Assembly: GCA_035504595.1 (NCBI GenBank)
Contig: DATJRQ010000018.1
Location: 5,204 to 69,203, forward strand
Reading direction: 5' to 3'
Source of the DNA: Thermoplasmata archaeon
Lineage (GTDB): Archaea > Thermoplasmatota > Thermoplasmata > Lutacidiplasmatales > UBA184
DNA: 64,000 bases
Below the pieces are notes generated by a model. The model was given only the letters and a program-made list of their open reading frames with translations, did no database searches and was not told the DNA's origin. A program made the position numbers and the translations under genes. Shown in pieces: positions 2,931 to 27,901 of the stretch; position 1 is the stretch's first letter, and every line of letters starts with the position of its first letter.

Positions 2931-3257
2931 CTATCCCGCGGGCTCGGCCGCCGCCCGGTAGAGGTCGTGGTCCTTTCGCACCGACACGACGGTGCCGGGG
3001 CCCGGCAGGGGTCCCTCCACGACCGCAAGGAGCCGCACCGACTCCGGCATCTCGACCAGGGCGAGCCGGTGGGGTGACGCCCAACCCTCCGCGGGCGCGG
3101 TCAGCTCGGTGCTGACGAGGACCGTGCCGAGCGCCGGCGCGGAGTACGGGTGGACGTCGGTCGAACCGCATCGGGGGCAGCCACCGTCCGTCGGCAGGAA
3201 CCGGGCCTGGCACGCCTCGCAGCGACTGAGCTCGATCGCCTCGGGCGAGGGGGTCAT
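2931..3257 (-). CDS. DUF35-family OB-fold / zinc-ribbon protein, the usual partner of archaeal thiolase-like enzymes
   Basis: Cys4 zinc ribbon (CEAC...CPRCGS) followed by an OB-fold-like C-terminus; 4-nt overlap with the upstream thiolase gene. Confidence 0.7.
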   Translation of the reverse strand: MTPSPEAIELSRCEACQARFLPTDGGCPRCGSTDVHPYSAPALGTVLVSTELTAPAEGWASPHRLALVEMPESVRLLAVVEGPLPGPGTVVSVRKDHDLYRAAAEPAG

Positions 3258-6444: not shown

Positions 6445-6874
6445 CGCCCGCGCCGCCGTGCGGTTCCACCGGCCCGCGGACGAGGATGTCCGCCGCGCCG
6501 CCCGTCGGCTCGTCCGTGGCGGCAAGGCGGCGTTTGCGTCTCAGGCCCGATTCCGGGACGCGCTGGTCGCGTCCCTCCGTCGGGACGACCCGATCGCCGT
6601 GATCTCTGGCCGTCGCCTGCGAAGTCTCCTGATCGACGTGCCGGGGGTTCGGATCTCCGTGCGGTACACCGAACGGACGTCCGCGCCTCCCCTGACGGCG
6701 TGCCCGGTCTGCGGGTCCGAGCTGAAGCCGATCCGCAACCAGACCCTTTCGGGAGATTCCGTCGTGCTTGGGCAGCGGTGCGTGCGATGCGACTACTGGA
6801 CGCACCGCACCCGTCGCGTGCCCGTTCGCTATCAGATCACGAGCGCTGGGATCGACGGGCGACGCGTGCGCTGA
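6407..6874 (+). CDS. Small Cys4 zinc-ribbon protein (unknown function), likely a partner of the upstream ATPase
   Basis: CPVCGS...CVRCDYW zinc ribbon. The annotated start overlaps the ATPase end by 38 nt; an alternative GTG at 6458 lies 14 nt after the ATPase stop. Confidence 0.45.
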   Translation: MPERADTATSPTDARAAVRFHRPADEDVRRAARRLVRGGKAAFASQARFRDALVASLRRDDPIAVISGRRLRSLLIDVPGVRISVRYTERTSAPPLTACPVCGSELKPIRNQTLSGDSVVLGQRCVRCDYWTHRTRRVPVRYQITSAGIDGRRVR

Positions 6875-6877
6875 ATC

Positions 6878-9800
6878 CTACGATTCTTGCCAGGGTTCCT
6901 CGGTCGCCGGAGGAGTCTCCTTCACCGGAGGGGTGTACGGGGTCGGAGGAGAGGAAGGCGGTTTGCTCCGAGAGCGACCCGCGGCGAACAACAGCACCGC
7001 GGCCACGGCCGCCCCCACGAGGATTCCCAGGACGAGGGCTTCGTCGAAGCTCGTTCCGAACGTCGAAGCGTTCGAACTCGAGGTCACCGTCAGATGATAC
7101 GTCGCGTTCCACTCCGCCCCGACCTTGTCCTCAATGAACAGCGTCACATTGTACGTGCCGGCGTTCGCGAAGGCGTGAGAGCTTTCGACGCCGTATCCGT
7201 AGGACCCGTCACCGAATCCCCAGACGATCGTGTACGGAGCCGTTCCTCCCGAGATCGACGTGGTGAAGTCGAGGGCAGTGCCCGCAGTTACGCTCGTGCC
7301 CGTGGGGAGCGCGGGACTCGTCGGGCCCGTCGCGACCTGGAATGTCGCGGCGAGAGCCGCGTTCACTGTGACCGTCGTGTAGTTGCTGACCGGTTCCCCT
7401 GCCGCGTCGGTGTAGTGCACCGTTGCAAAGTACGTCCCCGCGGTCGAGTAGGTGTGGTGCACTGTCGTCCCATTCGCCGTGGCGCCGTCTCCGAACGTCC
7501 AGTAGGACGTCCCCGGACTTACTCCCCCGGAAGCGAGGGTAGCAAAGGAAACTGGAATGCCCACGTCGGTGACGTTGGAGGGAGAAGCAGCCACCGCGAC
7601 CGTCGGAAGCGGCTCGACTGTGACCTGGCTGGTGGCGCTGGAAACTCCGCCGCCCGCATCTTTCGTGATGACAGTGAGAAGATACATGCCCGGGGCAGCG
7701 TACACGTGGGACGTGTTTGCGCCCCATGCAGTTGCCCCGTCGCCGAAGGCCCAGCTGTAATTGAATGGCCCCGTACCGCCGGTGACCGAGGCGGTGGCGT
7801 TCAACGTAGCCCCCAGATCTATCGCGGCGGATCCCCCTCCGTTGAGCTCGACCTGGACGGCCAGTGCGGGGTTGACCGAGAGGACGGTCGATGACTGAGT
7901 GGTGTATCCGAGCAAATCTTCAATCGTCGCGGAGATCGTGTAGGTTGCCGCGGATACAACTTTACAGTTGATAGTGGTCGCGTCCTGGCTGACGCACCCC
8001 GTCGGGAGACCGCTGTAGCTGATCGTCGACGGGCCCGCACCGCCCACGAATCCCAGCAGCACCGAGGTGGAGGCGCCGACGTCCACGGGGTTGGGGGTGG
8101 CGGCCAAGAAGGTGATCCGCGGCGGACTCGCGATGATGCTGATTGTGCCGGAAATGAAGTTGGTGACCCAGATCTCGCTGGAACCTTGTGAGTTGCTGCC
8201 CGGGAAGTTCACCGGGGTCGAGTCAATCGGCAATTGCCCGGCGGGGAAGGTCGTGTACGATACCTGGCTCGCTGCTACGGACGACCCATCAATGACTGTG
8301 ATGTTGCCCGGCCAGGGTGGTCCAGAACTCCCGTTCGATGCTACGTAGAGGAACTCTCGGGACGGGTCATACACAATTGACCAGGCGACCACGTGAGGCG
8401 CAATCGGAATCGGACCGGCAACGATACTGCGATTCCCGGGGTTGACAATCCATACGGCTTCGCCGAGCGCGTAGATCTTGTGATCTGCCGAGTCATAAGC
8501 CACCGAGAGCAAGCCGGGAATCGTTGAAATCGGCGCGCCGATGATGCTCCCGTTCGCCCCATTGACAGCGACCAGGGTTGGCGCCGCTGGGTCGGACCGA
8601 TTGACCACAAACAGCGTGTCAGACTCGTTGTCCAGCGCGACCCCCTGGAGGTTCACCGTGCCCGCGGCGATTCTGGTCTGGAGTTGGAGTGTCAGACTCG
8701 GCATGTCAAGGGCATAGAGCCCCGTGATCTTGTTCAGATCCCAGAGTAAGCCGCTCTGCGGGTCGACAATCAGCTGAGTGTTGTTGCCCGCCAAATCTGG
8801 TCCGGTGTTTTCCGAAATGATGCCGCCCGTCTGAGCGTCGACGGCAAGAACTCCGCCCGTGAAGCCAATGTAGATTGTGCCCGTCGCGGGGTCGTCGGCG
8901 AGAGAATTTGGTGTCCCGGGCACAGTCAGAGGGGCGCGGACAGTTTGGAACGTCGTTGCATTCAGCACCGATACTGCATGGCTTGCCCAATCTGCGACGA
9001 ACACGTACCCCGAACCAGGGTCGTACGCAAGAGTCGCGGCCTCTGCGCCCAGATTCGGTGAGAGCTGAACCACGCTCCGTGTCGAGATGTTGGCAACGGT
9101 GATTGTCCGATTCGTGTTGCTCCACACGTAGACAAGCCCGTTTGTTGGATCGAGAGTGAGACGATCCGGAGGCAGCGTCACGTTCAAGGCGATCGGCGTA
9201 ACGAGCCCGGCCCTTGCTTGTACAAGCGAGAGATGAAGGGCAGTTCCGTTCACTGACACGAATTCTGAACCATTCAAACTCGAGATCACAGACGAAACGT
9301 TGAGACCAACCGATGATGTTCCCTCCACAACCTCGGTGCTCGCGTCGTATAGGTTTAGGAGGGTGCTACTAGGTGTCGCGATGGCCAGTAGATTGGTCGA
9401 CGTCGAGTACGCAAGTGCACTTGGAGAAGAAAACAGTCGTATAGGGGGGCTTTCAACGACGAAGTTTTTTGTGACGTTCACTGGGGTGACGTTGTAAGCA
9501 CCCGCGTACACCCCGGAGTTTGCCACGAACACTTCCCCAATCGTCGGTGCGTCCACCAATGCGATAGGAGAAATCCCTACGTGCGGAACCGACTGCAGTA
9601 GCTGGCCGGTTGCGCCATCTATTATTGACAGGTTTCCGGAAGCGGTGTTTGCTACGACCAGATCTTGGGATACCGGGTCGTAGAGAATGTCGTGCGGATC
9701 GCCTCCAACCGGAATCGGTGACCCTACCGTAGTGCCCGTGATCAGACTGTAAGCTACGACCTGGTTCGTCAGTGGTAGGGTCGCGTACAGGTAGCCGTTG

Positions 9801-10294
9801 AGCGGGTCGTACGCGATCGAGCTGGCGTTCGCGAGCTGGGGGTCCATTTGGGTCGAGTTGCTCGCGGGCGAGTAGATCAGCGCCGGGGCGTTCGGCGGCG
9901 CGGGAATGTGAGCTGTCGTGATCGGGAATTCCGGAATCCAGAGCTGGTCGGTCACGGGGTCGACGGTTGCGTACCCGCTCGCGTCCCAAAGCCAAACCAT
10001 GCTCGGAAAGTTGCCGGGCGTTGACCCGTCGTAGTTCACAAAGGCCGTCTGAACGACCGAGCCAGCCGAACTCGGTGAGAAAGTGAGCGGGCGGTCGGGT
10101 TGCATGGGCCGCAACGACGCGGAGACCGGAGCAGACGACGCCGCTGAGACGAGCGTGTCGGACTTTTCCGGCGCAGTTCGAGCCGAAGTGAGCGAAGCCG
10201 CCGCCACTGCGGCCACCGAGAGGGCCGCCACGGCGACCGTCAAGAGAAGGAGGAGGACTCGGGTCGGCCGATTTGAATGCGTCGCCAGCGTCAC
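6878..10294 (-). CDS. Large cell-surface protein: signal peptide, YVTN-type beta-propeller repeats, three or more PKD domains, C-terminal TM anchor
   Basis: N-terminal hydrophobic signal; repeated 'YDPxxGxxYV(A/V)N' propeller-blade motifs; three 'W(A/T)FGDG..(Y/H)xYxxxGxY' PKD signatures; C-terminal TM helix plus a Pro/Thr-rich tail; many N-x-S/T sequons. Confidence 0.75.
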   Translation of the reverse strand: MTLATHSNRPTRVLLLLLTVAVAALSVAAVAAASLTSARTAPEKSDTLVSAASSAPVSASLRPMQPDRPLTFSPSSAGSVVQTAFVNYDGSTPGNFPSMVWLWDASGYATVDPVTDQLWIPEFPITTAHIPAPPNAPALIYSPASNSTQMDPQLANASSIAYDPLNGYLYATLPLTNQVVAYSLITGTTVGSPIPVGGDPHDILYDPVSQDLVVANTASGNLSIIDGATGQLLQSVPHVGISPIALVDAPTIGEVFVANSGVYAGAYNVTPVNVTKNFVVESPPIRLFSSPSALAYSTSTNLLAIATPSSTLLNLYDASTEVVEGTSSVGLNVSSVISSLNGSEFVSVNGTALHLSLVQARAGLVTPIALNVTLPPDRLTLDPTNGLVYVWSNTNRTITVANISTRSVVQLSPNLGAEAATLAYDPGSGYVFVADWASHAVSVLNATTFQTVRAPLTVPGTPNSLADDPATGTIYIGFTGGVLAVDAQTGGIISENTGPDLAGNNTQLIVDPQSGLLWDLNKITGLYALDMPSLTLQLQTRIAAGTVNLQGVALDNESDTLFVVNRSDPAAPTLVAVNGANGSIIGAPISTIPGLLSVAYDSADHKIYALGEAVWIVNPGNRSIVAGPIPIAPHVVAWSIVYDPSREFLYVASNGSSGPPWPGNITVIDGSSVAASQVSYTTFPAGQLPIDSTPVNFPGSNSQGSSEIWVTNFISGTISIIASPPRITFLAATPNPVDVGASTSVLLGFVGGAGPSTISYSGLPTGCVSQDATTINCKVVSAATYTISATIEDLLGYTTQSSTVLSVNPALAVQVELNGGGSAAIDLGATLNATASVTGGTGPFNYSWAFGDGATAWGANTSHVYAAPGMYLLTVITKDAGGGVSSATSQVTVEPLPTVAVAASPSNVTDVGIPVSFATLASGGVSPGTSYWTFGDGATANGTTVHHTYSTAGTYFATVHYTDAAGEPVSNYTTVTVNAALAATFQVATGPTSPALPTGTSVTAGTALDFTTSISGGTAPYTIVWGFGDGSYGYGVESSHAFANAGTYNVTLFIEDKVGAEWNATYHLTVTSSSNASTFGTSFDEALVLGILVGAAVAAVLLFAAGRSRSKPPSSPPTPYTPPVKETPPATEEPWQES

Positions 10295-10364: not shown

Positions 10365-11339
10365 CTACACCGTGCGGATGACCCGGCCCGCGTGGGCGTC
10401 GATTAGGATCGTGGTCTTCTGGCCCTTGTGGTCGAGCTGGAAGGAGAAGATCGGAACGTGCAGGAGCTCGCCGTCCGAGACGTCGGCCTGCGTCTTCAGC
10501 TGGGAGACCATGCTGTGCTTCTTGTGCGCCGCCTCGCTCTGCAGCTGCTGGACGAACGCCTGGGCGGCGTGCTTGGCGGCCTCCTCGCCGAGGTCGCCGT
10601 TCAGGACCTGGGTGCCGTCCGGGATCTGCTTCTTGTCGAAGAACGTCCGGTCGGTCAGGGAGAACTGGTAATCCTTCGGCTGGTACGCGGCCATCGACTT
10701 CACGGCCACGACGGGGTACTCGTACTGCCCCGAGATCGTCTCCGATCGGTTCGGGTTCACGACCGGGCCGCCCATGATCGGGATCACGGTGTAGCCCCCG
10801 CGTCGACCGCCCAGGGCGCTGCCGAGGAGCGCCCCGGCGGCGATCGTGCCCGCGGTCGCCCCGACCGTCGTGGCGACCGCCTGATACTGGTAGGTGGTGG
10901 AGGCCGATACCGGCATCACCCAGAACGGCACGTAGGACAGTCGCGTCTCGCCGACCTTCGACTCCTCGAAGTCCTTCCGATGGAAGAAGCCCTGGTCCAT
11001 GTACCCCTGGACGACCTTCAGCGCGTCCGCCGGGTTCACGACCTTCAGCGGGAGCATCGTGTGCTTGTTGATCTCCTTCCAGCCGTCGCCGCCCAGCGTG
11101 ACCGAGCTGCCGCAGTAGTCGCACGAGATGACCATCTCCCCGAACGCGGGCTTGATCGGCGCCCCGCAGGTCGGGCACTTCAACGCCTGGACACCGGCCG
11201 CCCCGAGGACGTTCCCCGAACTTGCGGGCTTGGACGACGCCGCGGGGGCCGCCCCGCCGCCGCCCGCCACCGCCGTTCCGCACTTGAAGCAGAACTGCGC
11301 GTTGTCGGGGAGCGATTGACCGCACTTGACGCAGAACAT
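10365..11339 (-). CDS. Protein with two N-terminal zinc ribbons + an uncharacterised C-terminal domain
   Basis: CVKCG..CFKCG and CPTCG..CDYCGS motifs; last gene of a 4-gene minus-strand operon. Confidence 0.5.
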   Translation of the reverse strand: MFCVKCGQSLPDNAQFCFKCGTAVAGGGGAAPAASSKPASSGNVLGAAGVQALKCPTCGAPIKPAFGEMVISCDYCGSSVTLGGDGWKEINKHTMLPLKVVNPADALKVVQGYMDQGFFHRKDFEESKVGETRLSYVPFWVMPVSASTTYQYQAVATTVGATAGTIAAGALLGSALGGRRGGYTVIPIMGGPVVNPNRSETISGQYEYPVVAVKSMAAYQPKDYQFSLTDRTFFDKKQIPDGTQVLNGDLGEEAAKHAAQAFVQQLQSEAAHKKHSMVSQLKTQADVSDGELLHVPIFSFQLDHKGQKTTILIDAHAGRVIRTV

Positions 11340-11376
11340 CGTACCTTCCTCTCGGAGCCGCGGTCCCGCCGAGCCA

Positions 11377-12531
11377 CTACCCCAACGGTGCCCCGCACTC
11401 GGGGCAGAACTTTCCGGTCGTGACCACCGACTTGCCGCACTTCGGACACGTGCGAGCGGCCGGCGGCGCCATCGAGGCGCCGCAGTTGGGGCAGAATTTC
11501 TGGCCCTGTGCGACGGGTTGACCGCACTTCGGGCACGGCGTGGTCGCGGCTGCGGGCGGCGCCATCGACGCCCCGCAGTTCGGACAGAACTTGTTGCCGG
11601 GAGGAACCTGGGCGTTGCACTTCGGGCAGACGAGCATCGGGCCCTGCTGCTGGTAGGCGCCCTGCATCTGGCCGGACATTCCGTACCCCATGCCGAGCCC
11701 CGCGCCCAGGCCGACGCCCGCGCCCGCCATCGCGCCCGCCCCGCCGGAGGGGTTGGAGGCAGCGGCGGTGATCGCTTGACCGGCCTGGTACTGCATGTAG
11801 TTCACGCCCAGGACCCCCATCTTGGACCGGGTGTCAATCGCCTGCTGGACGTCGTCGGGGACGCTGACCGAGAGTCCCTGCAGCTGCTTCACCTCGACGC
11901 CGAGCGGGCCGAAATGCTCGGGGACCGCCCCAAGCACCGCCTGTTCGATCGTCGTCAGCTGGGTCGCAAGGTCGGTGACCCGCATCCCCTGGTCCTTGAG
12001 CTTTCCGAGGGTGTTGTAGACGAGCAGGACCATCTGGTCGCGGAGGCGCGCCTCGACATCGGGCGTGGTGACGGCGCCGAACGTCCCGACGAACTGATTG
12101 ATGAAGTTGTCCGGGCTCCCGACGTTCCACCGGTAGGATCCGAAGACGCGGAGCTGGACGAGCCCGAAGTCCGGGTCCCGGAAGACGTACGGCTCGGTGC
12201 TCCCGAACTTTCCGTCGAAGATGCGGCGCTGGAGGTAGTACACCTCCGCCTCCTGCCGAACGCCCGAAAGCGCCTGGACGAGGTTCCCGAGAAGCCGGGC
12301 GTTGAGCGTGGTGAGCGAATACCGGTTCGGCTGGTCGAGATAGGCGAGCACCTTCCCGTCCCGATAGAAGACGGCGGTCTCGTCCTGCCGGACGACGACG
12401 TTGTCGCCCCACTTGATGTTGCGCGGCACGCGCCACATCACGTTCGGTCCCTTGTACGCGTCCTCCCAGTTGATCGTCGTGGCACCGATGAGGCTGCCAC
12501 CGGACGCCGGGATCGGATTGTTCGTAACCAT
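11377..12531 (-). CDS. SPFH/band-7-related protein (COG4260-like) with three C-terminal zinc ribbons
   Basis: N-terminal ~250 aa resembles the COG4260 'virion core protein-like' SPFH relatives; Gly/Met-rich linker; three tandem CPKCG/CPNCG ribbons at the C-terminus. Confidence 0.55.
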   Translation of the reverse strand: MVTNNPIPASGGSLIGATTINWEDAYKGPNVMWRVPRNIKWGDNVVVRQDETAVFYRDGKVLAYLDQPNRYSLTTLNARLLGNLVQALSGVRQEAEVYYLQRRIFDGKFGSTEPYVFRDPDFGLVQLRVFGSYRWNVGSPDNFINQFVGTFGAVTTPDVEARLRDQMVLLVYNTLGKLKDQGMRVTDLATQLTTIEQAVLGAVPEHFGPLGVEVKQLQGLSVSVPDDVQQAIDTRSKMGVLGVNYMQYQAGQAITAAASNPSGGAGAMAGAGVGLGAGLGMGYGMSGQMQGAYQQQGPMLVCPKCNAQVPPGNKFCPNCGASMAPPAAATTPCPKCGQPVAQGQKFCPNCGASMAPPAARTCPKCGKSVVTTGKFCPECGAPLG

Positions 12532-12551
12532 CGGTGTTGCTCCTTGCTCCC

Positions 12552-13298
12552 CTACCCTACGCGAATTCCTTCGATCGCCTGGACGCGCGCCTTGAACGCC
12601 TGGTCGAGCTGGTTGACCTGGCCCCGGGCCGTCGCGATGACGGCACCCGACTGGGCGGCGTTCGGGCCGGACGCGATGGACGGCAGGCTCGCGACGGTCT
12701 GCGCCAGCTGGTTCCCCGCCTGCGCGAACCCGAAGTCGTACTCGTAGAGCCGGTCGAGCTGCTCGGGCCGGATGCGGACGTTCGCGGAGATTCCCGTGTA
12801 TCCCTGCTCGGCGTTCCGGATCTCGCCCTCGAGCCGCCAGAGGTCGGCGATCAGGGGCGCGAGGTCGGTGAGCGCGGTGAACTGGTTCGCCTGGACGAGC
12901 ATCTGGCGCGTGTTCTCGACCGTCGCTCGGGCGTTCTTCATCTTGTCCGCGACCTGAACGCGGAGCAGCTCGTCGGCGGCGCGGATATCCTCGCCCTCAC
13001 GGTACGAGCGATACCCGGGCACGAGGAGCTGGAGGCGCTTGAGGATCCCGCGGTCGTCGTCGACGCGCTGGCGAAGGTCGACCGGGGGGGCGGTGCCCGC
13101 GGTCGGCGCGGCCCCGGAACCGGAGGCGGCGGGCGGCGGGGGCGGAGGCGGGGGAGGGGGAGGAGGAGGCGGCGGCGCGCTCACGGGGGCCGGCACGGAC
13201 AGCGGACCTCCGCACTGGTTGCAGAAGCGGGTCCCCGCGGGCGAGGAGGCGCCGCACTTCGGGCAGGCGACCATCGCGGACGCGGGCGGGGCGGCCAT
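12552..13298 (-). CDS. Zinc-ribbon protein with a Pro16 linker and a helical C-terminal domain
   Basis: CPKCG..CNQCG ribbon, then 16 consecutive Pro codons (13128-13175), then ~190 aa predicted helical. The start abuts the stop of the upstream membrane-protein gene. Confidence 0.5.
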   Translation of the reverse strand: MAAPPASAMVACPKCGASSPAGTRFCNQCGGPLSVPAPVSAPPPPPPPPPPPPPPPAASGSGAAPTAGTAPPVDLRQRVDDDRGILKRLQLLVPGYRSYREGEDIRAADELLRVQVADKMKNARATVENTRQMLVQANQFTALTDLAPLIADLWRLEGEIRNAEQGYTGISANVRIRPEQLDRLYEYDFGFAQAGNQLAQTVASLPSIASGPNAAQSGAVIATARGQVNQLDQAFKARVQAIEGIRVG

Positions 13299-13847
13299 TT
13301 ACGGACTCCGAGGCGGAGGAGGAGAGTTCGCCGGGGGCGGCGCCGTTTGCGGGACGCTCGGGGAGTTCGCCGCGGCATACGAGAATGCCGACGGAGCCGG
13401 CCGCTCGCGCCACTGGTCCCGGACCGCCTCGCGGGACTGTGTGGCCTGAACGGCGCGCAGGCGCCACCCGACGAGCGCGATCGAGATCCCGAGCGCGATG
13501 GCGGTGAGCAGCAGGCCGATGAGCTGCCACGTGCCGAGCGAGACGCCGTAGGAGGGAGCGAGGCCGATCGTGAGGAACAGGACGGCGAATCCCATGCCGA
13601 AGAAACCCCACGCGAGCGACCGTTGCGCGGCGGGGTCGCGGGACAGCGACTCCGCGAGGTAGCAGACGACGGCGAAGATCAGGGCGAGGATCCCGATCCA
13701 GAGCAGGCCGTAAAAGTGCTGGCTCGACGGGAGCGCGAGGTAGACGAGGTAGAACAGGATCGCGGCGACGACGAGGAAGATCGCCGTCAGCACCGCGGCG
13801 TTCGTCTTGCTGCGCGCGGGAGCGGTGGGAGCACTCGGAGTCGACAT
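13299..13847 (-). CDS. Polytopic membrane protein (4 predicted TM helices) with a Pro-rich C-terminus
   Basis: Four hydrophobic ~20-aa segments; first gene of the zinc-ribbon/SPFH operon. Confidence 0.5.
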   Translation of the reverse strand: MSTPSAPTAPARSKTNAAVLTAIFLVVAAILFYLVYLALPSSQHFYGLLWIGILALIFAVVCYLAESLSRDPAAQRSLAWGFFGMGFAVLFLTIGLAPSYGVSLGTWQLIGLLLTAIALGISIALVGWRLRAVQATQSREAVRDQWRERPAPSAFSYAAANSPSVPQTAPPPANSPPPPRSP

Positions 13848-13914
13848 CGGGAACGTTCGAGAGAAAAGGTTCGGGCCAGTATAAGAGCGTAAGCCGGCCG
13901 CCCGACGGTCCGAT

Positions 13915-14859
13915 TCACCGGATCATTCCCAGCAGTTGGAGCATCGGCCCGACGCTCGCCGAGTTCCACCATAGGACGACCTGGCCCACCCCGTGCGCGA
14001 GGGCGATCTCGTAGTCGGTGTAGGCGGTGGACACGGAGATGTCGTTCGGGTCGCCGGACGCGAGCGTGAGCTGGACCGATATCGCGGAGGGCGGGATCCC
14101 GTAACCCGCGTACTCGGTGACCAAGCTCTCGATCGCGCTCGTCCACGTCGTCGTGGAGGCGTGGGCCGCGCCCTGGAGCTGGATCTGCAGCGCGTCGAGC
14201 CCGGTGGTCGCGAGGAGCGCACCGTAGTTCCAGTTGTACGAGCGGTCCGCCCCGACCCACAGCGGTTGCGAGGTCGGGTATCCGTACGCGGCGAACCCCG
14301 CGGCGTGACAGCTGTGGGCGAACGACGCGAAGTTCGACAGCGTGGTCGAGAAGTTGAGGGTGAACTCCGGTTCGAAGCCGGGCTCGTAGTCGTAGATCAC
14401 GCCCTCGAACGAGGACGAGAGCCCTCCGGTCACGAGGTCGTGGACGTTGCTCAGGCCGGCCGTCCGAGCCTCGAAGTGGATGCCGGACGGGAGCGAGGGG
14501 GCGAGGTCCGCGAGCCGGCTGTTGAGGTAGGATACGTTCGGCGTCGAGTTGTTGAGCCCGCTGCTGAGCATGATCGTGTCGTTCGAGATCAAGTACGGCG
14601 CGAAGCGCTCGGAGATCGCCGAGATCGAAGAGGCGTTGATGCTCTGCGGCGCGATGACGAGGGGCGTGGCGTTCGACGGGGGGGCGCCGGCGGGCGCGCC
14701 CGACCCCGCGCACGGCGGGAAGGTGTCGAGGGGTTGGCCGCAGGCGGCGTTCCCGCCGAGGTCCACGACCGCCACGGCCGCGCCGAGGAGCAGCAGAACG
14801 ACCGCGATCGTCCGGAACGGGAACCGCTCCCGCTCGCTCGACCGTCCGGGGGGGGTCAT
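13915..14859 (-). CDS. Secreted/anchored protein, paralog 1 of a tandem pair (possible TIM-barrel glycoside-hydrolase-like fold)
   Basis: Internal Met followed by a hydrophobic anchor (AVVLLLLGAAVAVV). Shares the motifs DTIMLSSG, YDYEPGFEPEF, WNYG.LLAT.G.D.LQIQ.QGA.H and GQVVL.WN with the next gene. Many N-glycosylation sequons. The upstream part of the ORF is Arg-rich junk, so the start was reset. Confidence 0.5.
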   Translation of the reverse strand: MTPPGRSSERERFPFRTIAVVLLLLGAAVAVVDLGGNAACGQPLDTFPPCAGSGAPAGAPPSNATPLVIAPQSINASSISAISERFAPYLISNDTIMLSSGLNNSTPNVSYLNSRLADLAPSLPSGIHFEARTAGLSNVHDLVTGGLSSSFEGVIYDYEPGFEPEFTLNFSTTLSNFASFAHSCHAAGFAAYGYPTSQPLWVGADRSYNWNYGALLATTGLDALQIQLQGAAHASTTTWTSAIESLVTEYAGYGIPPSAISVQLTLASGDPNDISVSTAYTDYEIALAHGVGQVVLWWNSASVGPMLQLLGMIR

Positions 14860-14930
14860 GGGAGACCCCGGGGCCAGCGGCCTCGCAGCGCTTGAGCCTT
14901 CGCGTGGCGGTCCGGGGGACGTGGTCCGCT

Positions 14931-16064
14931 CTACCCTCGGACCAGATCGAGGAGGTCGAGCAGCGACGGGAGGCTCGACAGGTTCCAGAACAGGACGACC
15001 TGACCCGCGCCGCGAGCGACGGCGTTCTCGTACGCCAGGTACGCGGTGGAAACGTTCACCTGGTTCGGGACCCCGTTCGCAAGGCTCACCTGGACGCTGA
15101 TATCCGAGGCGGGAAGGCCGAATCCCCCGTACTGGGTGCTGAGCGTAGAGATCGAGCGGTTCCAGATGTTCATCCCCGTGTGGAGAGCGCCCTGGTCCTG
15201 GATCTGGAGCTGGTCGATGCCCGAGGTGGCGAGCAGGGAGCCGTAGTTCCAGCCGTCCTGGGAGTAGTGCGCGCCCCACAGCGGCAGCGAGTAGGGGTAG
15301 CCCACCGCCCCGAAGCCGGCGAGATGGCACATCTGGGCGAACTGGATGAAGTTCGACATCGTGGTCGTGAAATTCACGGAGAATTCCGGCTCAAAGCCCG
15401 GTTCATAATCGTACACCACCGAGCGGAACGAGGGGGACAGACTCCCGACGAGCGTCTGCACGTTCGCCAGCCCGCCCGTCCGCGCCTCGTAGACGATCCC
15501 TTTCGGGAGCTGGGGCTGCAGCAGGAGCAGCTGAGAGTTGAGGTACCACGGGTTCGCGGAGCTGCCGTTCGCGTTCGCGCCGCTGCTGAGCATGATCGTG
15601 TCGCCGGACCGCAGGTACGGTCGTACGGACGTGGCGAGGGCGGCGAGCGTCGAGTCGTTGATGTCCTCGGGAACGAGCACGAGCGGGACCACCGTGGAGG
15701 GGGTCCGGGGCGGCGGCAGGGGGGCGGGCGACGGGCCGAGGGGCGGCGTCGAGTTGGAGGCGGCCTCCGGCGCGAGGGCGCTCGACGGCCCGGGCGCCCA
15801 CGGTGCCGGGGAGCGAGCGGGCGGCGAGGAGTGCGGCAGCGAGCTCCCCGGACCGGTCGCCGTCGCCCCCGGGTGCGCCGTCGAGCAGAACCCGACCCCC
15901 CCGGAGGCGGTGCCGCACAGGACGTTCGACCCGGCGAACACCGTGAGCGAGGTCGTCGCGATCAGGACCAGCACGACCGCGACCACGCCGTTCCGGTGGC
16001 GGCGGGCCCGTTCGGTGCGGCGTCGCCCCTCTGGGCTCGGCGGGTGCTTCGGTCGCGGCTCCAT
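14931..16064 (-). CDS. Secreted/anchored protein, paralog 2 of the tandem pair
   Basis: Same conserved motifs as paralog 1; N-terminal signal anchor (VVAVVLVLIATTSL); Pro/Ser-rich linker. Confidence 0.5.
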   Translation of the reverse strand: MEPRPKHPPSPEGRRRTERARRHRNGVVAVVLVLIATTSLTVFAGSNVLCGTASGGVGFCSTAHPGATATGPGSSLPHSSPPARSPAPWAPGPSSALAPEAASNSTPPLGPSPAPLPPPRTPSTVVPLVLVPEDINDSTLAALATSVRPYLRSGDTIMLSSGANANGSSANPWYLNSQLLLLQPQLPKGIVYEARTGGLANVQTLVGSLSPSFRSVVYDYEPGFEPEFSVNFTTTMSNFIQFAQMCHLAGFGAVGYPYSLPLWGAHYSQDGWNYGSLLATSGIDQLQIQDQGALHTGMNIWNRSISTLSTQYGGFGLPASDISVQVSLANGVPNQVNVSTAYLAYENAVARGAGQVVLFWNLSSLPSLLDLLDLVRG

Positions 16065-16127: not shown

Positions 16128-19100
16128 TCAGAGCCGCGGTTCGTCGTCTCCCTTGTCCCGCCGCGGCTTCACAACCGGGGCGGGGGGGGGCGCGGGAGGC
16201 TCCGGAACCGTGGTCCCCGACGGCGATCCGTCCGCGCTGGGCGCGGGAGCGGATTTCGCGGTCGCTGAGCCGGAGTTATCCTTCATGGGGGTTGATGAAC
16301 CTGTCGCTGGCCCACTGGGCGACGGTTTCGGCTTGGGGGAGCCGGAAACTCCCCCCGGATGGTCCTTCCGGAGCGGCGATCCGCCGCCGGTCCTCGAGGA
16401 GGGACCCTTGGACCTCTGGAACACCCCCCGAAGGCCGCTCGACGGGGCGGAGGCGGCCCGCCCGCTGGCGGAATGCAGGGTGACTCCGGCCGCGGCCCGG
16501 GTGTTATCCGTCGTCACCGGCTGGTTGCATTTCGGACACTTCGGGAAGGTGCCGATGCAGTGCTGGCAGAGGGGGGCCCCGCACGAGTGCAGGACCGACG
16601 CGATCCCCCCGCACCCGACGCACCGCGGGGACGCGGCAGATTGGCTCGCGGCGGTCGTGACCGACGGGGAGAACGCTGGCGGGCCCGCGGGCGACGCCCC
16701 CGGGGACGGGCTCGGCTGGTTCTCCGGCGCGAAGTAGGTGTCCCCCGAGACGGGCAGTGCGGGGGCGCCCGCGTCGGCCTCCTTCGCGCGGAACTCGGGG
16801 CCGTACGCGCCGAGGTCGAGCGTGGGAAGCGGCGCGTGGACCGCGGACCCGGCTTCCTCCACGACCTTGATCAGGCGTGCCTTGTAGATCCCGACCCGCA
16901 GGCTGCGGACCAGCTGGAAGAGCGTCCGTTGCTCCGGCGGCAGGACGAGCGCCTTCCGGGCGAGCTCTTCGACATCGGGCGTCAGCTTGAGATTCTCCGG
17001 CCGCAGGTCGGCCTCGAGGACCGCCTTGAGGTAGCCGAACAGGCGCTGGACCTGATCGAGGGAGTAGCCGGGCGGCGACATCACGGCCACATCGGCCATC
17101 GTGAACCCCCGCCGCTCGATGCCGGGCGGCCGACGTTCGAGGGCCTGGGTCACGAGGTGGTACGACGCGTTCTCGAGGTCGTGGATCTCGGCGACCTCGA
17201 TGCGGTCGAGCTTCAGGTCGGGCGGTCGACCGATCGCCGCGAGCACCGGTTCGAGGTACTCGTAGGGGACGTGCAGCGTCACGAAGAGGTCGTTCTTCGC
17301 GACGGTCCGGTTCAGCTTCGCCTCGAGCAGGAGCGCCTCGCGGCCGTAGCGCGAGATCTCGGCGTCCCGCGTCTTCTGCGCGGCGAGCTTCTTCCCGTCC
17401 TTCGCGGGGCCGAAGTCGGAATCCAGGGCCAGCGCGCGTTCGAAGCTCGTCTGGGCGTCGGTCGGCCGGCCGGTCGCGAGGAGCGCGACCCCCCGGCTGG
17501 TCCACGCCTGCTTGTTGCCGGGGTCGGCCTCGGTCGCGCGCTCGTAGAACGAGAGCGCCTCGTTCGGATGGTTCAACCGCTCGGCGACGAACCCGGCGCG
17601 AAGGAGAACGTCCGTGGCGGCCGGTGCGAGACTCAGTGCATGGGCGAACGCGTTCGCCGCATCCGGCCACGCCTGCCGGGCGACGCCGAGCTCGCCCCAC
17701 CGCACCCACAAGGCGGTGCTCTTGGGGAGCACCTCCACGCCCTTTTTCAGCGCGTCCGATGCCGGGTCGAGATGGCCGAGACCGCTCTCCGCCTCGGCGA
17801 GGAGCAGGTAGAGGGACTCCTGGGGAGGAACCTGCGGGATCGACTGACGGAGGAGCTCGAGGGCGTCCGCGTGACGCCCTTCGTCGAGGAGCGATCGGGC
17901 GGTGCCGGCGATCGCGAGCGGGGAGCGGGGCTCCCGCTGGCGGACCTCGTCGTACACCGCGCGCGCCTCGGCCGGTCGCTCCAGCGCCGTCAGCACTTCG
18001 GCGCGGAGCAGCAGCGCCGCCACGTTCGCCGGGGCGCCCGCGGGGGCCGCTTTCAGCCCTTCGTCCAGCACCTCGAGCGCGAGGTCCGGGCGACCCGAGC
18101 TCAGCCGAAGCCGGGCGCGACGGATGGCGATCTCGACGCGGTACACCGGGTCGATCTCGGCCGCGCGTTCGTAGGATCGGTTCGCTTCCTCGGCGAGCCC
18201 CAGGCTCGCGGCGAGGTCCCCGCGTTCCAGGTGGAGCGTCGCGTCCTGCGCGCTCGGGCCGTGGGTCGCGAGGAGCTTGGTGAGGCTCTCGAGCGCCTCC
18301 TTGTTCTCGCCCGCGTCGCGATGCAGATGGTACTTCTCGAGGAGGGCCGGACCGTTGTCCGGCTCCAGGAGGAGGATCGCGGTGAGCGAATACAGGAGCT
18401 CGGAGGGGCGCCCGAGGGCCCGCCACGCGTCGCCCCGCGCCTTCCACGCGGCGATCTCGTTCGGGTCTTCCTTGAGGAGCTGGTCGGCGAGCGTGACGAC
18501 CTCGGCGTACTTCCCGGCCAGCAGGAGGGTCTCGGCGAGCGCGAGTCGACCGTGGCGGCTCTTCGGGTCGACCTCGAGCCCGCGGCGATAGTACGCGATC
18601 GCGTCGGCGTACGCGCCCTGGGCGCGGAGCGCCTCGGCGACCTCGAAGAACGCGTGCGCGTCGCCCGTGACCCCCTGGACGGCCGACTGCAGCACCTTCA
18701 GCGCTTCGGGCCGACGACCGCTCGCGAGCAGGATCTGTCCCTTCTTGCGGAGGAACATGGGATTGTTCGGTTCGCGCGCAAGGAGCATGTCGAGCAGCTG
18801 GAGGGCGCGCGCCTCCTGGTTCGAATGCGCCAGGACCTCCACGGCTCCCCAGAACAGGTCCGGGTCCTCGAGCCCACCGGCGATCGCCCGGGTGTACGCG
18901 TCCGTCGCTTCGGAGTACCGCCCGGCCTCGCGCAAGGCGTGGCCGAGTTCCTTCAGGACATCGTTGCGCATCTGGTTCCCCTCGCGGTCGAGGAACGCGT
19001 GGTACGCCCAGATCGCCCGATCATGATCCCCGACGAGACGCGACGCCCGCGCGATCCCGAGTTCGCTCACCGGCGCCGCGTCGGCGTCGGTCGATGCGCG

Positions 19101-26564: not shown

Positions 26565-27901
26565 GCCGGACGCGGCGCTCCGCTCTCGGCCCGGCCGCCG
26601 GGCAAGGGGTTAAGGTCCGGGCGCTCGTCTCTAGTGGTACTCTCAGAGGCGCCGTGCCCACCAGTTGTCCGATCTGCGAGCAACCGATCCCGTCCACGGT
26701 CGGTCATTGCTCCGTCTGCGGGTTCCCGACCGCTCTGGCGATCGAGGGATTGCGCTCGCTCGGGCCGAACGGCGCGACGGACGCGGAGCTCGCGTCCCCG
26801 ACCGTGCTCGAGGTCCGACCCGCCCCCAAGACGCCAGAGCCGCCCTCCGCCGAGTCGGAACTGTGCGCGTCGATCAGCCGCGACATTCGCGGCAAGCTCG
26901 AGTATGTCCGGGAGCTCGGACGCGGCGCCCCGGACCCGACGAGCGACATGTGCCAGGCCGCGCTCAACGAGGCCGAGGGGCGCGTCAGCGAAGCGCTGGA
27001 CGTGCTTCGGCGGGCGCAGCACAGCCTCGACCGGCAGACCGACGAGGTGCTCCGGGGCCGACTCGACTCGCTCCGCACCCGCGAGAGCGCGCTGCGGGAG
27101 ACCGGCGTCCAGTTCGCCCTTGGGGGCGACCTGCGGCGGCTCGCCGATGCGGTCGACGGCGGACAGCGCGAGTCGGCGGTCGGTCTCCTCGTCGAGACCG
27201 AGCGTCGCGTGGCCCAGTTCGAATCCGATTGGCGGGGACTGCAGGGACTGCTCCGTCAGATCGACACGCTTCGGAAGGAGGCCGCCGACCTCGGGATCCC
27301 GCTCGGCGAGATCGCCGGCGAGGTCTCCGATATCCGGGACCAGCTGCGCGGGAGCGATATCACGGAGGAGGCGCTCGATGAGGTCGCCCAGGCGGCCGCT
27401 CAGACGCTGATGCTGCTGCACGAAGCGATCCCGACCTCGCTCGAGGAGGAGCTCCTCCGGCACGAGGCGACCCTCGACCGGTACCCGGACGACCACGCGC
27501 CGAGCGCCGCCGCTCGACGGCTTCACGGCGAAGCCGCCCGCCATCTCAAGAAGGGGCGGCTCTCGGACGCGGTCCAGAGCGTCCGCGAGCTCCGGCGCGA
27601 GATCGAGCGGCTCGAACAGTCGCGCGAACTCCGCGAGGCGGCGGTCGGCGCCGCGCCGGTCGCACCCGCCGCGCCGCCGCCGGTGGAGACCGAAGCGGAG
27701 ACCCTCGAACGGCTTCTCAAGAAGGCCCGCAGCCTCGCCGGGCGGGTCCGCACCCTGCCCCCGGACAGCGAGCTCGCTCGCGAAGCGGCGTCGCAGATCC
27801 GGGAGGTCACGGACCTCCTGCGGAACCGCGAGCTGCGAGGCGCCGATCAGGCGCTCGCCCGCTTGATGCGGATGCTCTCGGCCGAACCGGGAGGCGTCTA
27901 G
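26561..27901 (+). CDS. N-terminal zinc-ribbon + long coiled-coil protein (446 aa)
   Basis: CPICEQ...CSVCGF ribbon, then ~380 aa Arg/Glu/Leu/Ala-rich heptad-like sequence. Translationally coupled to the SAMP-like gene. Confidence 0.55.
   Translation: MSRTRRSALGPAAGQGVKVRALVSSGTLRGAVPTSCPICEQPIPSTVGHCSVCGFPTALAIEGLRSLGPNGATDAELASPTVLEVRPAPKTPEPPSAESELCASISRDIRGKLEYVRELGRGAPDPTSDMCQAALNEAEGRVSEALDVLRRAQHSLDRQTDEVLRGRLDSLRTRESALRETGVQFALGGDLRRLADAVDGGQRESAVGLLVETERRVAQFESDWRGLQGLLRQIDTLRKEAADLGIPLGEIAGEVSDIRDQLRGSDITEEALDEVAQAAAQTLMLLHEAIPTSLEEELLRHEATLDRYPDDHAPSAAARRLHGEAARHLKKGRLSDAVQSVRELRREIERLEQSRELREAAVGAAPVAPAAPPPVETEAETLERLLKKARSLAGRVRTLPPDSELAREAASQIREVTDLLRNRELRGADQALARLMRMLSAEPGGV

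What the first reader, a model, noticed from the sequence alone, without database searches (positions are those of the whole stretch)
10365..13847. Four-gene membrane / zinc-ribbon / SPFH operon with seven or more zinc ribbons
The four genes are co-directional and tightly packed (gene 1 stop abuts gene 2 start; gaps ≤45 nt). Gene 1 is a 4-TM membrane protein. Gene 2 has a Zn ribbon, a Pro16 linker and a helical domain. Gene 3 is a COG4260-type SPFH relative carrying three C-terminal Zn ribbons. Gene 4 has two N-terminal Zn ribbons and an unknown domain. SPFH/band-7 proteins scaffold membrane microdomains, and this density of ribbons suggests a membrane-associated assembly or stress/remodelling module that I cannot match to a described system.
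Basis: partly seen in the sequence, partly recalled or inferred. Interest (0 to 1): 0.65.

Follow-up and report, generated by a model that had tools for sequence, protein, structure and literature searches.

The report
Archaeal SPFH zinc-ribbon membrane operon
This is a real four-gene operon in an uncultured Thermoplasmata archaeon; two of its genes are distant relatives of the Bacillus SamI/SamG (YdjI/YdjG) membrane-stress proteins, and a previously undescribed four-helix-bundle protein sits where Bacillus has the membrane-repair protein PspA.

Summary
The four minus-strand genes exist as described. The spacings are 0, 20 and 37 nt, and a conserved archaeal TATA box lies 39 nt upstream of gene 1. 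There are six zinc ribbons (1+3+2), not seven or more.

- Gene 3 is a soluble Band_7_1 SPFH protein. It has the same layout as B. subtilis YdjI/SamI: SPFH domain, Gly/Met-rich linker, C-terminal ribbons.
- Gene 4 is a remote homologue of YdjG/SamG: two ribbons plus the following domain.
- The cluster therefore partly matches a described system, the pspA-ydjGHI (samGHI) envelope-stress operon. PspA and YdjH are absent.
- Gene 1 is a clade-specific 4-TM protein.
- Gene 2 carries a confidently predicted four-helix bundle. It has no Pfam family and no PDB relative, and it is not PspA-like.

This bundle family is related to NCBIfam LIMLP_15305 and is usually a standalone protein of about 175 aa. 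It lies immediately upstream of a Band_7_1 gene in 8 of 8 distant contexts, archaeal and Chloroflexi, so it is the conserved partner. No paper found here describes this pairing.

Most likely function: a cytoplasmic-face SPFH scaffold or sensor complex for membrane stress. This is inferred, not shown.

Verdict: new variant of a known kind, moderate interest.

The parts
13879..13886 (-). Archaeal TATA-box-like element TCTTATAC, 39 nt upstream of the g1 ATG; the likely promoter of the four-gene unit.
   Evidence: 49 of 54 distinct upstream sequences from related loci carry a TATA-like hexamer at -50..-25, and 42 of them at -40..-37. The background rate is 0.27% of random windows in this 70% GC sequence. 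The element lies downstream of the stop codon of the preceding gene.
13299..13847 (-). g1: 182-aa 4-TM membrane protein with an Arg-rich then Pro-rich C-terminal tail. Predicted N-in/C-in. Clade-specific putative membrane anchor.
   Evidence: Four hydrophobic segments at 17-35, 47-65, 78-104 and 109-127. No Pfam or NCBIfam family above cut-off. Present in 63/63 clade loci with room for it. A 124-aa homologue exists in L010 (E 1e-9), but none in the other distant contexts. Not similar to YdjH.
13212..13265 (-). g2 N-terminal Zn ribbon (residues 12-29), PF13240 type, the same type as the g3 ribbons.
   Evidence: Pfam Zn_Ribbon_1/DZR matches below cut-off. CxxC...CxxC is invariant in the clade. 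The g2 profile hits the g3-family ribbons. Absent from the standalone ~175-aa relatives.
13083..13211 (-). g2 disordered Pro/Ala-rich linker including the Pro16 run; variable in length and sequence.
   Evidence: pLDDT below 50 for residues 58-96. The alignment shows non-conserved low-complexity sequence. Pro run = 16.
12555..13082 (-). g2 helical domain (residues 73-248): an N-terminal conserved helix and loop (PGYRxYRxxEDxRxAD), then an antiparallel four-helix bundle. Member of a superfamily related to NCBIfam LIMLP_15305.
   Evidence: AF2 helices 102-136, 140-165, 178-203 and 214-245, mostly pLDDT above 90. NF047596 E 6.8e-12 but 45.6 bits against a cut-off of 210. 54/56 family members hit it, and none has a Pfam family. 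No PDB relative by fold or by profile. Not PspA.
11377..12531 (-). g3: soluble SPFH protein of the Band_7_1 / YdjI (SamI) type. SPFH domain 34-240 (11812-12432), Gly/Ala/Met-rich low-complexity linker ~250-298 (11638-11784), three PF13240 Zn ribbons 302-381 (11389-11628).
   Evidence: PF13421 E 8e-36. No hydrophobic segment. BLASTP to Bacillus YdjI E 3e-13 over the full length, including the linker and a ribbon. It is the most conserved gene of the cluster, median 79% identity in the clade.
10365..11339 (-). g4: YdjG (SamG)-like protein. Ribbon 1 at residues 3-20 (11280-11333), YdjG-type ribbon 2 at residues 55-76 (11112-11177), and an alpha+beta domain at 85-324 interrupted by a weakly hydrophobic Gly/Ala/Thr-rich insertion at 154-176 (10812-10880).
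   Evidence: BLASTP to Bacillus YdjG E 3e-5 over residues 3-159. hhalign probability 96.4%, E 1.4e-9, 136 columns. The C-terminal half aligns collinearly but weakly, P 0.0067. The AF2 model is poor, pLDDT 56.7, and below 50 for residues 152-223. The L011 homologue lacks exactly this insertion.

Best explanation
The locus is a single transcription unit of an uncultured Thermoplasmata archaeon. It encodes an archaeal variant of the SPFH-based envelope-stress module known from the B. subtilis pspA-ydjGHI (samGHI) operon.

Shown by homology:
- g3 is a soluble YdjI/SamI-type Band_7_1 SPFH protein.
- g4 is a YdjG/SamG-type double-Zn-ribbon protein.

Shown by comparative genomics:
- The universal partner of this kind of SPFH protein is not g4 but the g2-type four-helix-bundle protein (LIMLP_15305-like superfamily).
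- Its gene directly precedes the Band_7_1 gene in distant archaea and in Chloroflexi.
- It occupies the operon position that PspA has in Bacillus, but it is unrelated to PspA.

Inferred mechanism:
- g3 oligomerises into an SPFH ring or cage at the cytoplasmic face of the membrane.
- g3 has no TM segment, so it is tethered by g4 (hydrophobic insertion) and by the 4-TM protein g1, whose Arg/Pro-rich tail faces the cytoplasm.
- The g2 bundle binds the SPFH assembly as its client, effector or regulator, probably through the conserved Tyr/Gly/Arg loops that cluster at one end of the bundle and its conserved N-terminal helix.
- All six ribbons are cytoplasmic. Five are of one type (PF13240) and sit on flexible linkers of g2, g3 and g4. 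They most plausibly act as common docking modules that hold the peripheral parts together at the membrane.

By analogy with SamI, which restrains SamGH signalling and recruits PspA, the complex would sense or buffer membrane perturbation.
For: - Gene anatomy and packing.
- A conserved TATA box only upstream of g1, with no room for internal promoters.
- g3 matches PF13421 and YdjI over its full length.
- g4 matches YdjG.
- Published experiments show that YdjI is soluble, needs YdjG and YdjH to reach the membrane, and is needed for PspA foci (PMC8581546).
- Published domain descriptions give YdjI as band-7 plus a C-terminal ribbon, and YdjG as two ribbons, a YpeB-like domain and a TM segment (PMC11237479).
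- SamI restrains SamGH (bioRxiv 10.64898/2026.02.06.704340).
- Within the clade: g3 62/62, g1 63/63, g4 38/38.
- The g2-family gene sits immediately upstream of a Band_7_1 gene in L010, L011, L012, L013, L094, L095, L097/98 and L099/100, that is 8 of 8 contexts with downstream sequence. These include Chloroflexi.
- A g4 homologue is also adjacent in L010, L012 and L011.
- The four-helix bundle is predicted with pLDDT above 90.
- g2 and g3 have no hydrophobic segment, and the g4 ribbons precede its only hydrophobic segment, so all ribbons are cytoplasmic.
Against: - No experiment exists on any archaeal member. Membrane association, oligomerisation and the g2-g3 contact are all inferred.
- Two of the four Bacillus components, PspA and the TPM-domain protein YdjH, are absent, so functional transfer is partial.
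- The g4-YdjG similarity is remote (18% identity) and is firm only for the N-terminal half. The hydrophobic segment is internal and weak (KD 1.53), not a C-terminal TM as in YdjG.
- The minimal conserved unit elsewhere is two soluble proteins. L097 has no membrane partner nearby, and the L011 g4 homologue has no hydrophobic segment. A membrane anchor is therefore not universal.
- Within the clade, synteny extends to unrelated flanking genes (TPR 40/40, PKD 24/26), so clade-level synteny alone says little about function.
- The role proposed for the ribbons is speculative.
Confidence: 0.55

Rival explanations
1. It is a true Psp-type system. Under this reading the g2 helical domain is an extremely diverged PspA/ESCRT-III-like membrane-remodelling protein recruited by the SPFH protein, exactly as in Bacillus.
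For: g2 occupies the operon position upstream of the SPFH gene that PspA holds in Bacillus. It is all-helical. SPFH-PspA coupling is documented (PMC8581546, PMC11237479).
Against: hhalign of the clade profile and of the 56-member family profile against Bacillus PspA gives probabilities of 0.4% and 0.1%. There is no PspA_IM30 or Snf7 Pfam match. The predicted fold is a compact bundle of four helices of 26-35 residues, not the long alpha1-alpha2 hairpin. Foldseek against PDB returns no PspA, Vipp1 or ESCRT-III chain among the 50 matches listed, and nothing at E below 1e-3.
Confidence: 0.07
2. It is a quality-control cage of the canonical SPFH type. The SPFH oligomer would enclose and regulate a membrane protease or another client, as in HflK/C-FtsH or stomatin-NfeD, with g1 or g4 as the enclosed client.
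For: SPFH proteins generally form cages around membrane clients (PMC12624060, abstract seen; the examples are listed in the discussion read). g1 and g4 are membrane or membrane-dipping proteins encoded in the same operon.
Against: The operon has no NfeD, FtsH or other protease domain. An M48 peptidase occurs two genes downstream in only one distant locus, L011. Band_7_1 proteins lack the N-terminal TM segment, and g3 has only a low-complexity linker after its SPFH domain, so it also lacks the long C-terminal coiled coil that builds the canonical cages. The conserved partner is a soluble helical protein.
Confidence: 0.15
3. It is an anti-virus defence or virus-derived module. The Band_7_1 family was once named after a poxvirus virion core protein, and SPFH and Zn-ribbon proteins occur in some defence islands.
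For: Only the historical family name and the general presence of ribbons in defence proteins, which is my own background knowledge. A CBASS paper links PspA to phage response.
Against: None of the four proteins has a PADLOC match. The cluster sits in conserved chromosomal synteny across the clade rather than in a variable island. The four-helix-bundle family has no relative in 2.9 million viral contigs or in plasmids.
Confidence: 0.03
4. The adjacency carries no function. Unrelated Zn-ribbon genes, which are abundant in Thermoplasmata, happen to lie next to an SPFH gene and are kept only because the sampled genomes are closely related.
For: The unrelated flanking genes TPR and PKD are just as syntenic within the clade. 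g1 is found only in the clade and in one further locus.
Against: The g2-g3 adjacency holds in 8 of 8 distant contexts spanning two domains of life, where the flanking genes are entirely different. The g4-type gene recurs beside g3 in three of them, and the g3/g4 pair recurs in Bacillus. The genes are spaced 0-37 nt apart behind a single conserved promoter.
Confidence: 0.05

Closest known systems
B. subtilis pspA-ydjGHI (renamed pspA-samGHI) envelope-stress operon
   Same: Both have a soluble Band_7_1 SPFH protein with a Gly/Met-rich linker and C-terminal Zn ribbon (YdjI/SamI ~ g3). Both have a protein with two N-terminal ribbons followed by a conserved domain ending in a '..PFW' motif (YdjG/SamG ~ g4). 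Both encode a helical soluble protein and an extra membrane protein in the same operon.
   Different: There is no PspA/ESCRT-III protein; the unrelated four-helix-bundle protein g2 takes its place. There is no TPM-domain YdjH; the unrelated 4-TM protein g1 is present instead. The gene order differs (g1-g2-g3-g4 against pspA-G-H-I). g3 has three ribbons instead of one. The g4 hydrophobic segment is internal, not a C-terminal TM. The host is an archaeon, whereas the published description assigns this architecture to Firmicutes (PMC11237479).
NCBIfam NF047596, LIMLP_15305 family (Leptospira hypothetical protein, ~175 aa)
   Same: The g2 helical domain aligns to profile positions 10-170 of 175 (E 6.8e-12), and 54 of 56 family members sampled match it. 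Size and all-helical nature agree.
   Different: Scores of 45-47 bits are far below the equivalog cut-off of 210 bits. g2 is therefore a superfamily relative, not a member. g2 also carries an N-terminal ribbon and linker that the family lacks. No function is known for the family; the only paper that mentions the locus tag just lists it beside a small RNA.
Canonical SPFH operons (stomatin-NfeD, flotillin-YuaF/NfeD2, HflK/C-FtsH)
   Same: An SPFH-domain protein is encoded together with dedicated partner proteins. A higher-order scaffold at the membrane is expected.
   Different: Band_7_1 proteins have no TM anchor and no long coiled-coil region. There is no NfeD or protease partner. The partner here is a soluble helical bundle.
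E. coli PspABC phage-shock system
   Same: Only the concept is shared: a membrane sensor plus a peripheral regulator or effector held at the inner face of the membrane.
   Different: No PspA, PspB, PspC or PspF homologue was detected in the cluster.

Membership tests
Band_7_1 / YdjI (SamI)-type SPFH proteins (g3) | SPFH domain matching Pfam PF13421 above the gathering score | tested here: met
   124.1 bits against a cut-off of 24, E 8.2e-36, residues 34-240 covering profile positions 3-211 of 211.
Band_7_1 / YdjI (SamI)-type SPFH proteins (g3) | No transmembrane or hairpin anchor (soluble, unlike FloA, FloT or stomatin) | tested here: met
   No 19-residue window exceeds KD 1.5. YdjI is described as soluble in PMC8581546.
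Band_7_1 / YdjI (SamI)-type SPFH proteins (g3) | Low-complexity linker followed by C-terminal Zn ribbon(s); direct similarity to YdjI | tested here: met
   BLASTP to Bacillus YdjI gives E 3e-13 and 23% identity over 327 columns that include the Gly/Met-rich linker and a ribbon. g3 has three ribbons against one in YdjI.
Band_7_1 / YdjI (SamI)-type SPFH proteins (g3) | Forms higher-order oligomers and membrane foci that depend on partner membrane proteins | not testable with these tools
   This needs microscopy, biochemistry or multimer modelling.
YdjG (SamG) family (g4) | Two N-terminal Zn ribbons | tested here: met
   CxxC-x12-CxxC at residues 3-20 and CxxC-x16-CxxC at residues 55-76. They align with the two ribbons of YdjG.
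YdjG (SamG) family (g4) | Conserved domain after the ribbons (described as YpeB/NTF2-like in PMC11237479) | tested here: inconclusive
   The N-terminal half is homologous: hhalign probability 96.4%, E 1.4e-9, through the '..VPFW' motif. The C-terminal half is collinear but weak, P 0.0067, probability 5.7%. The AF2 model is too poor (pLDDT 56.7) and Foldseek against PDB gave nothing significant; YpeB 5boi appears only at E 8.
YdjG (SamG) family (g4) | C-terminal transmembrane anchor | tested here: not met
   The only hydrophobic stretch is internal (residues 154-176, KD 1.53, Gly/Ala/Thr-rich) and behaves as an insertion, since it is absent from the L011 homologue. YdjG has its TM segment at residues ~315-338.
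YdjG (SamG) family (g4) | Encoded next to a Band_7_1 gene | tested here: met
   Seen in the window, in 38/38 clade loci, and in L010, L011, L012 and Bacillus.
Psp-type pspA-ydjGHI operon (whole cluster) | A PspA/ESCRT-III family gene in the operon | tested here: not met
   No PspA_IM30 or Snf7 Pfam match in any of the four proteins. The g2 profiles against Bacillus PspA give probabilities of 0.4% and 0.1%. The fold is not a hairpin. Whether the genome encodes PspA elsewhere cannot be told from one window.
Psp-type pspA-ydjGHI operon (whole cluster) | A YdjH-type TPM-domain membrane protein | tested here: not met
   No TPM_phosphatase match. g1 against YdjH by BLASTP gives E 1.1.
Psp-type pspA-ydjGHI operon (whole cluster) | Induction by envelope stress (sigma-W in Bacillus) | not testable with these tools
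   No expression data are available. Only a conserved archaeal TATA box was found.
NCBIfam LIMLP_15305 family (g2 helical domain) | Score at or above the curated equivalog cut-off (210 bits) | tested here: not met
   45.6 bits for the full protein and 47.1 bits for the domain alone. It is a related superfamily member, not an equivalog.
PspA / ESCRT-III (g2 helical domain) | Long alpha1-alpha2 helical hairpin and sequence-profile similarity | tested here: not met
   AF2 gives four helices of 26-35 residues packed as a bundle. The listed Foldseek PDB matches are generic bundles (IncA, Tar ligand-binding domain, designed proteins), none at E below 1e-3. A profile search of PDB finds only designed bundles.
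Known anti-phage defence systems | Match to a PADLOC-DB model | tested here: not met
   No family matched any of the four proteins at E of 0.1 or better.

The most novel reading that the evidence does not exclude
The LIMLP_15305-like four-helix-bundle protein is the ancestral, obligate partner of soluble Band_7_1 SPFH proteins across archaea and bacteria. On this reading it is a non-ESCRT-III membrane effector or regulator that does the job PspA does in Firmicutes. That would define a widespread, uncharacterised two-component membrane-maintenance system, of which the Bacillus SamGHI/PspA operon is a derived variant.
Probability: 0.25. Interest if true: 0.7.

Novelty: new variant of a known kind. 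Interest (0 to 1): 0.45.

Why it matters
Soluble Band_7_1 SPFH proteins are widespread but have been studied in only one organism, B. subtilis, where YdjI/SamI links PspA to the membrane and restrains a membrane sensor. This locus shows three things:

- The YdjI/YdjG pair extends into archaea.
- In archaea and Chloroflexi the constant neighbour of the SPFH gene is a conserved four-helix-bundle protein, not PspA. That protein has no Pfam family, no solved relative, and no paper on its function found here.
- Membrane anchors and Zn-ribbon, SHOCT or other terminal modules are swapped around this two-protein core.

If the bundle protein is the real partner, it gives a concrete, testable handle on what this SPFH class does. 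It would also show how organisms without a linked PspA handle membrane stress, and it names a new protein family for annotation. The finding is comparative-genomic only, so its present value is as a well-defined hypothesis rather than a demonstrated mechanism.

Tried and rejected
- **Exact-sequence look-up of g3** in the assembly collection found nothing. The context had to come from homologues.
- **Sequence search of PDB** with g2, g3 and g4 gave only generic ribbon or low-complexity matches at E of 0.01 or worse. Profile searches with A3 and A1 found only designed helical bundles and an ArnA ribbon.
- **Foldseek against PDB** gave no significant hit for g2 or for the low-confidence g4 model.
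- **PspA hypothesis for g2** was tested and rejected.
- **YdjH hypothesis for g1** was tested and rejected.
- **Defence-system hypothesis** was rejected (PADLOC).
- **Viral and plasmid origin** was rejected for the bundle family.
- **The metagenome locus scan** with the diverse alignment A3 failed for lack of a conserved stretch. With A4 it returned only close Thermoplasmata relatives. It is therefore useful for clade synteny and the promoter, but not for breadth.
- **Three distant bundle homologues** sat on contigs too short to show more than the start of the next gene.
- **The Leptospira neighbourhood of LIMLP_15305** could not be examined.
- **Rfam** found no RNA family in the window.

Full report
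**1. What is there**

The region holds four co-directional minus-strand ORFs:

| Gene | Coordinates | Length |
|---|---|---|
| g1 | 13299-13847 | 182 aa |
| g2 | 12552-13298 | 248 aa |
| g3 | 11377-12531 | 384 aa |
| g4 | 10365-11339 | 324 aa |

- The g1 stop (TAA) abuts the g2 ATG. The g2-g3 and g3-g4 gaps are 20 and 37 nt, and each holds a GGAG/AGGA motif.
- g1 has four hydrophobic segments. Its Lys/Arg distribution places the N-terminus, the 2-3 loop and the Arg-rich then Pro-rich C-terminal tail in the cytoplasm.
- g2 is a Zn ribbon, then a Pro/Ala linker with a run of exactly 16 prolines, then a helical domain.
- g3 matches Pfam Band_7_1 (PF13421) at 124 bits against a cut-off of 24. A Gly/Ala/Met-rich linker and three ribbons follow the domain.
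- g4 has two N-terminal ribbons and then about 240 residues with no family.
- The ribbons number six, not seven or more. They are 6 of the 11 distinct CxxC...CxxC motifs found in all six frames of the 64-kb window.
- Close homologues are annotated 'Thermoplasmata archaeon' and come from peat and soil metagenomes.

**2. It is one transcription unit with its own promoter**

I took the 100 nt upstream of g1 from the related metagenome loci.

- 49 of 54 distinct sequences carry a TATA-like hexamer at -50..-25, and 42 of them at -40..-37.
- The background rate is 0.27% of random windows in this 70% GC DNA.
- In the window the element is TCTTATAC at 13879-13886.
- It lies after the stop codon of the preceding gene. 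The internal gaps are too short for further promoters.
- Co-transcription of g1-g4 is therefore inferred, not shown.

**3. Conservation within the clade**

The analysis used 80 metagenome loci with g2 identity of 55-100%. The order TPR-g1-g2-g3-g4-PKD is kept wherever the contig is long enough:

| Gene | Present / loci with room |
|---|---|
| g3 | 62/62 |
| g1 | 63/63 |
| g4 | 38/38 |
| TPR | 40/40 |
| PKD | 24/26 |

- g3 is the most conserved gene (median 79% identity) and g1 the least (57%).
- The unrelated flanking genes are equally syntenic, so this result alone does not prove functional linkage.

**4. Link to a described system**

The literature describes the B. subtilis pspA-ydjGHI operon, now renamed pspA-samGHI.

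- YdjI needs the membrane proteins YdjG and YdjH to reach the membrane, and it is needed for PspA foci (PMC8581546).
- YdjG has two ribbons, a YpeB/NTF2-like domain and a TM segment. YdjH has a TPM domain (PMC11237479).
- SamI restrains SamGH signalling (bioRxiv 10.64898/2026.02.06.704340).

I fetched the operon from Bacillus genomes using a published primer sequence and compared the proteins directly.

| Comparison | Result |
|---|---|
| g3 vs YdjI | BLASTP E 3e-13 over the full length, including linker and ribbon |
| g4 vs YdjG | BLASTP E 3e-5 over residues 3-159 |
| g4 clade profile vs YdjG | hhalign probability 96.4%, E 1.4e-9 |
| g4 clade HMM vs four Bacillus YdjG proteins | About E 2e-9 |
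| g4 C-terminal half vs YdjG | Collinear but weak, P 0.0067 |
| g2 profiles vs PspA | Probability 0.4% and 0.1% |
| g1 vs YdjH | E 1.1 |

Two of the four genes therefore match the Bacillus system and two do not.

**5. The g2 helical domain**

- AlphaFold2 with a 39-sequence alignment gives a mean pLDDT of 77.7. The model has a ribbon, a disordered linker (residues 58-96, pLDDT below 50), and four helices at 102-136, 140-165, 178-203 and 214-245, mostly above 90.
- Foldseek against PDB finds only generic bundles, none at E below 1e-3. No PspA or ESCRT-III chain is among the 50 matches listed.
- A family profile against PDB sequences finds only designed bundles.
- The domain hits NCBIfam LIMLP_15305_fam at E 6.8e-12, far below the equivalog cut-off.
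- An exhaustive HMMER search of 1.84 billion cluster representatives gave 840 proteins at E of 1e-10 or better. That count also includes multi-ribbon proteins. Of the best 150, 61 are single-domain proteins of 150-200 aa that match only the helical part.
- 54 of 56 of these match LIMLP_15305_fam, and none has a Pfam family.
- The strongest conservation is in an N-terminal helix and loop (..LKKIQL.IPGFRGYR..ED.R.AD..LR), a loop (RHAEQGYSG.S) and LYEYD.
- In the model the two Tyr/Gly/Arg loops lie at the same end of the bundle. I infer that this end is a binding surface.

**6. Context of distant family members**

| Locus | Arrangement |
|---|---|
| L010 (archaeal; a diphthamide synthase gene is nearby) | 124-aa g1 homologue, bundle, Band_7_1 with ribbons, g4 homologue |
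| L012 | Bundle, Band_7_1 with ribbons, g4 homologue |
| L011 | Bundle, Band_7_1 with ribbons, then a convergent g4 homologue that lacks the first ribbon and the hydrophobic insertion |
| L013 | 2-TM protein with a YdjG-type ribbon, bundle, Band_7_1 without ribbons, double-ribbon protein |
| L094, L095 | Bundle, then the start of a Band_7_1 gene |
| L097/98 (Chloroflexi) | Bundle, then Band_7_1-SHOCT |
| L099/100 (Chloroflexi) | 2-TM protein with ribbon, bundle, Band_7_1 with ribbon |

- The bundle gene directly precedes a Band_7_1 gene in 8 of 8 contexts that have downstream sequence. The surrounding genes are otherwise unrelated.
- This is the strongest evidence of functional coupling. It identifies the bundle-SPFH pair as the conserved core, with YdjG-like proteins, small TM proteins and terminal ribbons or SHOCT as variable additions.
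- The family has no relatives in viral contigs or plasmids, and none of the four proteins matches a PADLOC defence model.

**7. g4 details**

- The AF2 model is poor (pLDDT 56.7). It suggests an alpha+beta domain interrupted by a low-confidence stretch at residues 152-223.
- That stretch contains the only hydrophobic segment: residues 154-176, Gly/Ala/Thr-rich, KD 1.53.
- The L011 homologue lacks exactly this stretch. It is therefore an insertion, more likely a membrane-dipping loop than a membrane-spanning helix.
- This differs from the C-terminal TM segment of YdjG.

**8. Most likely mechanism**

- Shown: the homology of g3 and g4 to SamI and SamG, and the conserved coupling of g2 and g3.
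- Inferred: g3 forms an SPFH oligomer at the inner face of the membrane.
- Inferred: g4 and g1 tether it there.
- Inferred: the g2 bundle is its client, effector or regulator, taking the place of PspA.
- Inferred: the ribbons on flexible linkers act as docking modules. Five are of the PF13240 type, and all six are cytoplasmic.
- By analogy with SamI, the complex would sense or buffer membrane perturbation.
- Against the model: there are no experimental data on any archaeal member, and two Bacillus components are missing. The g4 homology is remote, and in some lineages the core pair has no membrane partner nearby.

**9. Novelty**

- The SPFH/YdjG pairing is described, for Firmicutes. COG4260-type SPFH proteins with a C-terminal ribbon are a known class (my own knowledge).
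- I found nothing in the searched literature on the archaeal version, the replacement of PspA by a four-helix-bundle family, or the near-universal pairing of that family with Band_7_1 genes.
- I class it as a new variant of a known kind, of moderate interest.

Noticed in passing
window 16128-20684 (-), Cys cluster at 16527-16622: A 1518-aa TPR-repeat protein lies upstream and is syntenic with the cluster in 40/40 clade loci, usually directly before g1. Near its C-terminus it carries a seven-cysteine cluster, CVGCGG..C....CQHC......CPKC (RING- or ribbon-like). It is absent from the distant contexts, so it is probably not part of the core module.
   Followed up: partly
window ~13915-15330 (-) and 14931-16064 (-): Two paralogous genes with no Pfam family sit between the TPR gene and g1. 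Each has an N-terminal TM segment, a Pro/Ser-rich stretch, many N-x-S/T sequons and a shared C-terminal ...VVL(W/F)WN... domain. They are found only in the window and its nearest relatives (L001, L002); in other clade members the TPR gene directly precedes g1. The listed ORF for the first one overlaps the second by about 400 nt, so its true start is probably further downstream.
   Followed up: partly
window 6878-10294 (-): A 1138-aa surface-type protein (beta-propeller/lactonase-like repeats, three PKD domains, C-terminal TM segment) lies downstream of g4. It is syntenic in 24/26 loci but only 32-50% identical, so it evolves much faster than the cluster. The GC dip to 0.594 at 8-10 kb falls inside this gene.
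   Followed up: partly
L099:5455-5973 and L013:125-667: In the Chloroflexi-type loci a 172-180-aa protein sits just upstream of the bundle-SPFH pair. It has two TM segments, a conserved middle region and a C-terminal ribbon, CPNCG..L..AGKG..KC.(Y/F)CG. That ribbon resembles the second ribbon of g4 and YdjG, which suggests this ribbon type specifically accompanies Band_7_1 systems.
   Followed up: partly
L097:6589-7626: The Band_7_1 protein next to the bundle gene in one Chloroflexi lineage ends in a SHOCT domain instead of Zn ribbons, and the L013 one has no terminal module. The C-terminal module of this SPFH class is therefore interchangeable.
   Followed up: no
L099:3490-5436: A 648-aa multi-TM protein with a long poly-Gly C-terminus and no precomputed Pfam hit lies two genes upstream of the Chloroflexi bundle-SPFH pair. 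Gly-rich tails also occur in YdjH, YdjG and the L012 g4 homologue (Gly/Met-rich), and g3 and YdjI have Gly/Met-rich linkers. This is a recurring but unexplained compositional feature.
   Followed up: no
window 29455-29523 (+), 26666-26719 (+), 3168-3221 (-), 6701-6790 (+): These are the only other CxxC...CxxC motifs in the window. None was examined further. No Rfam family reaches its gathering score anywhere in the window.
   Followed up: no
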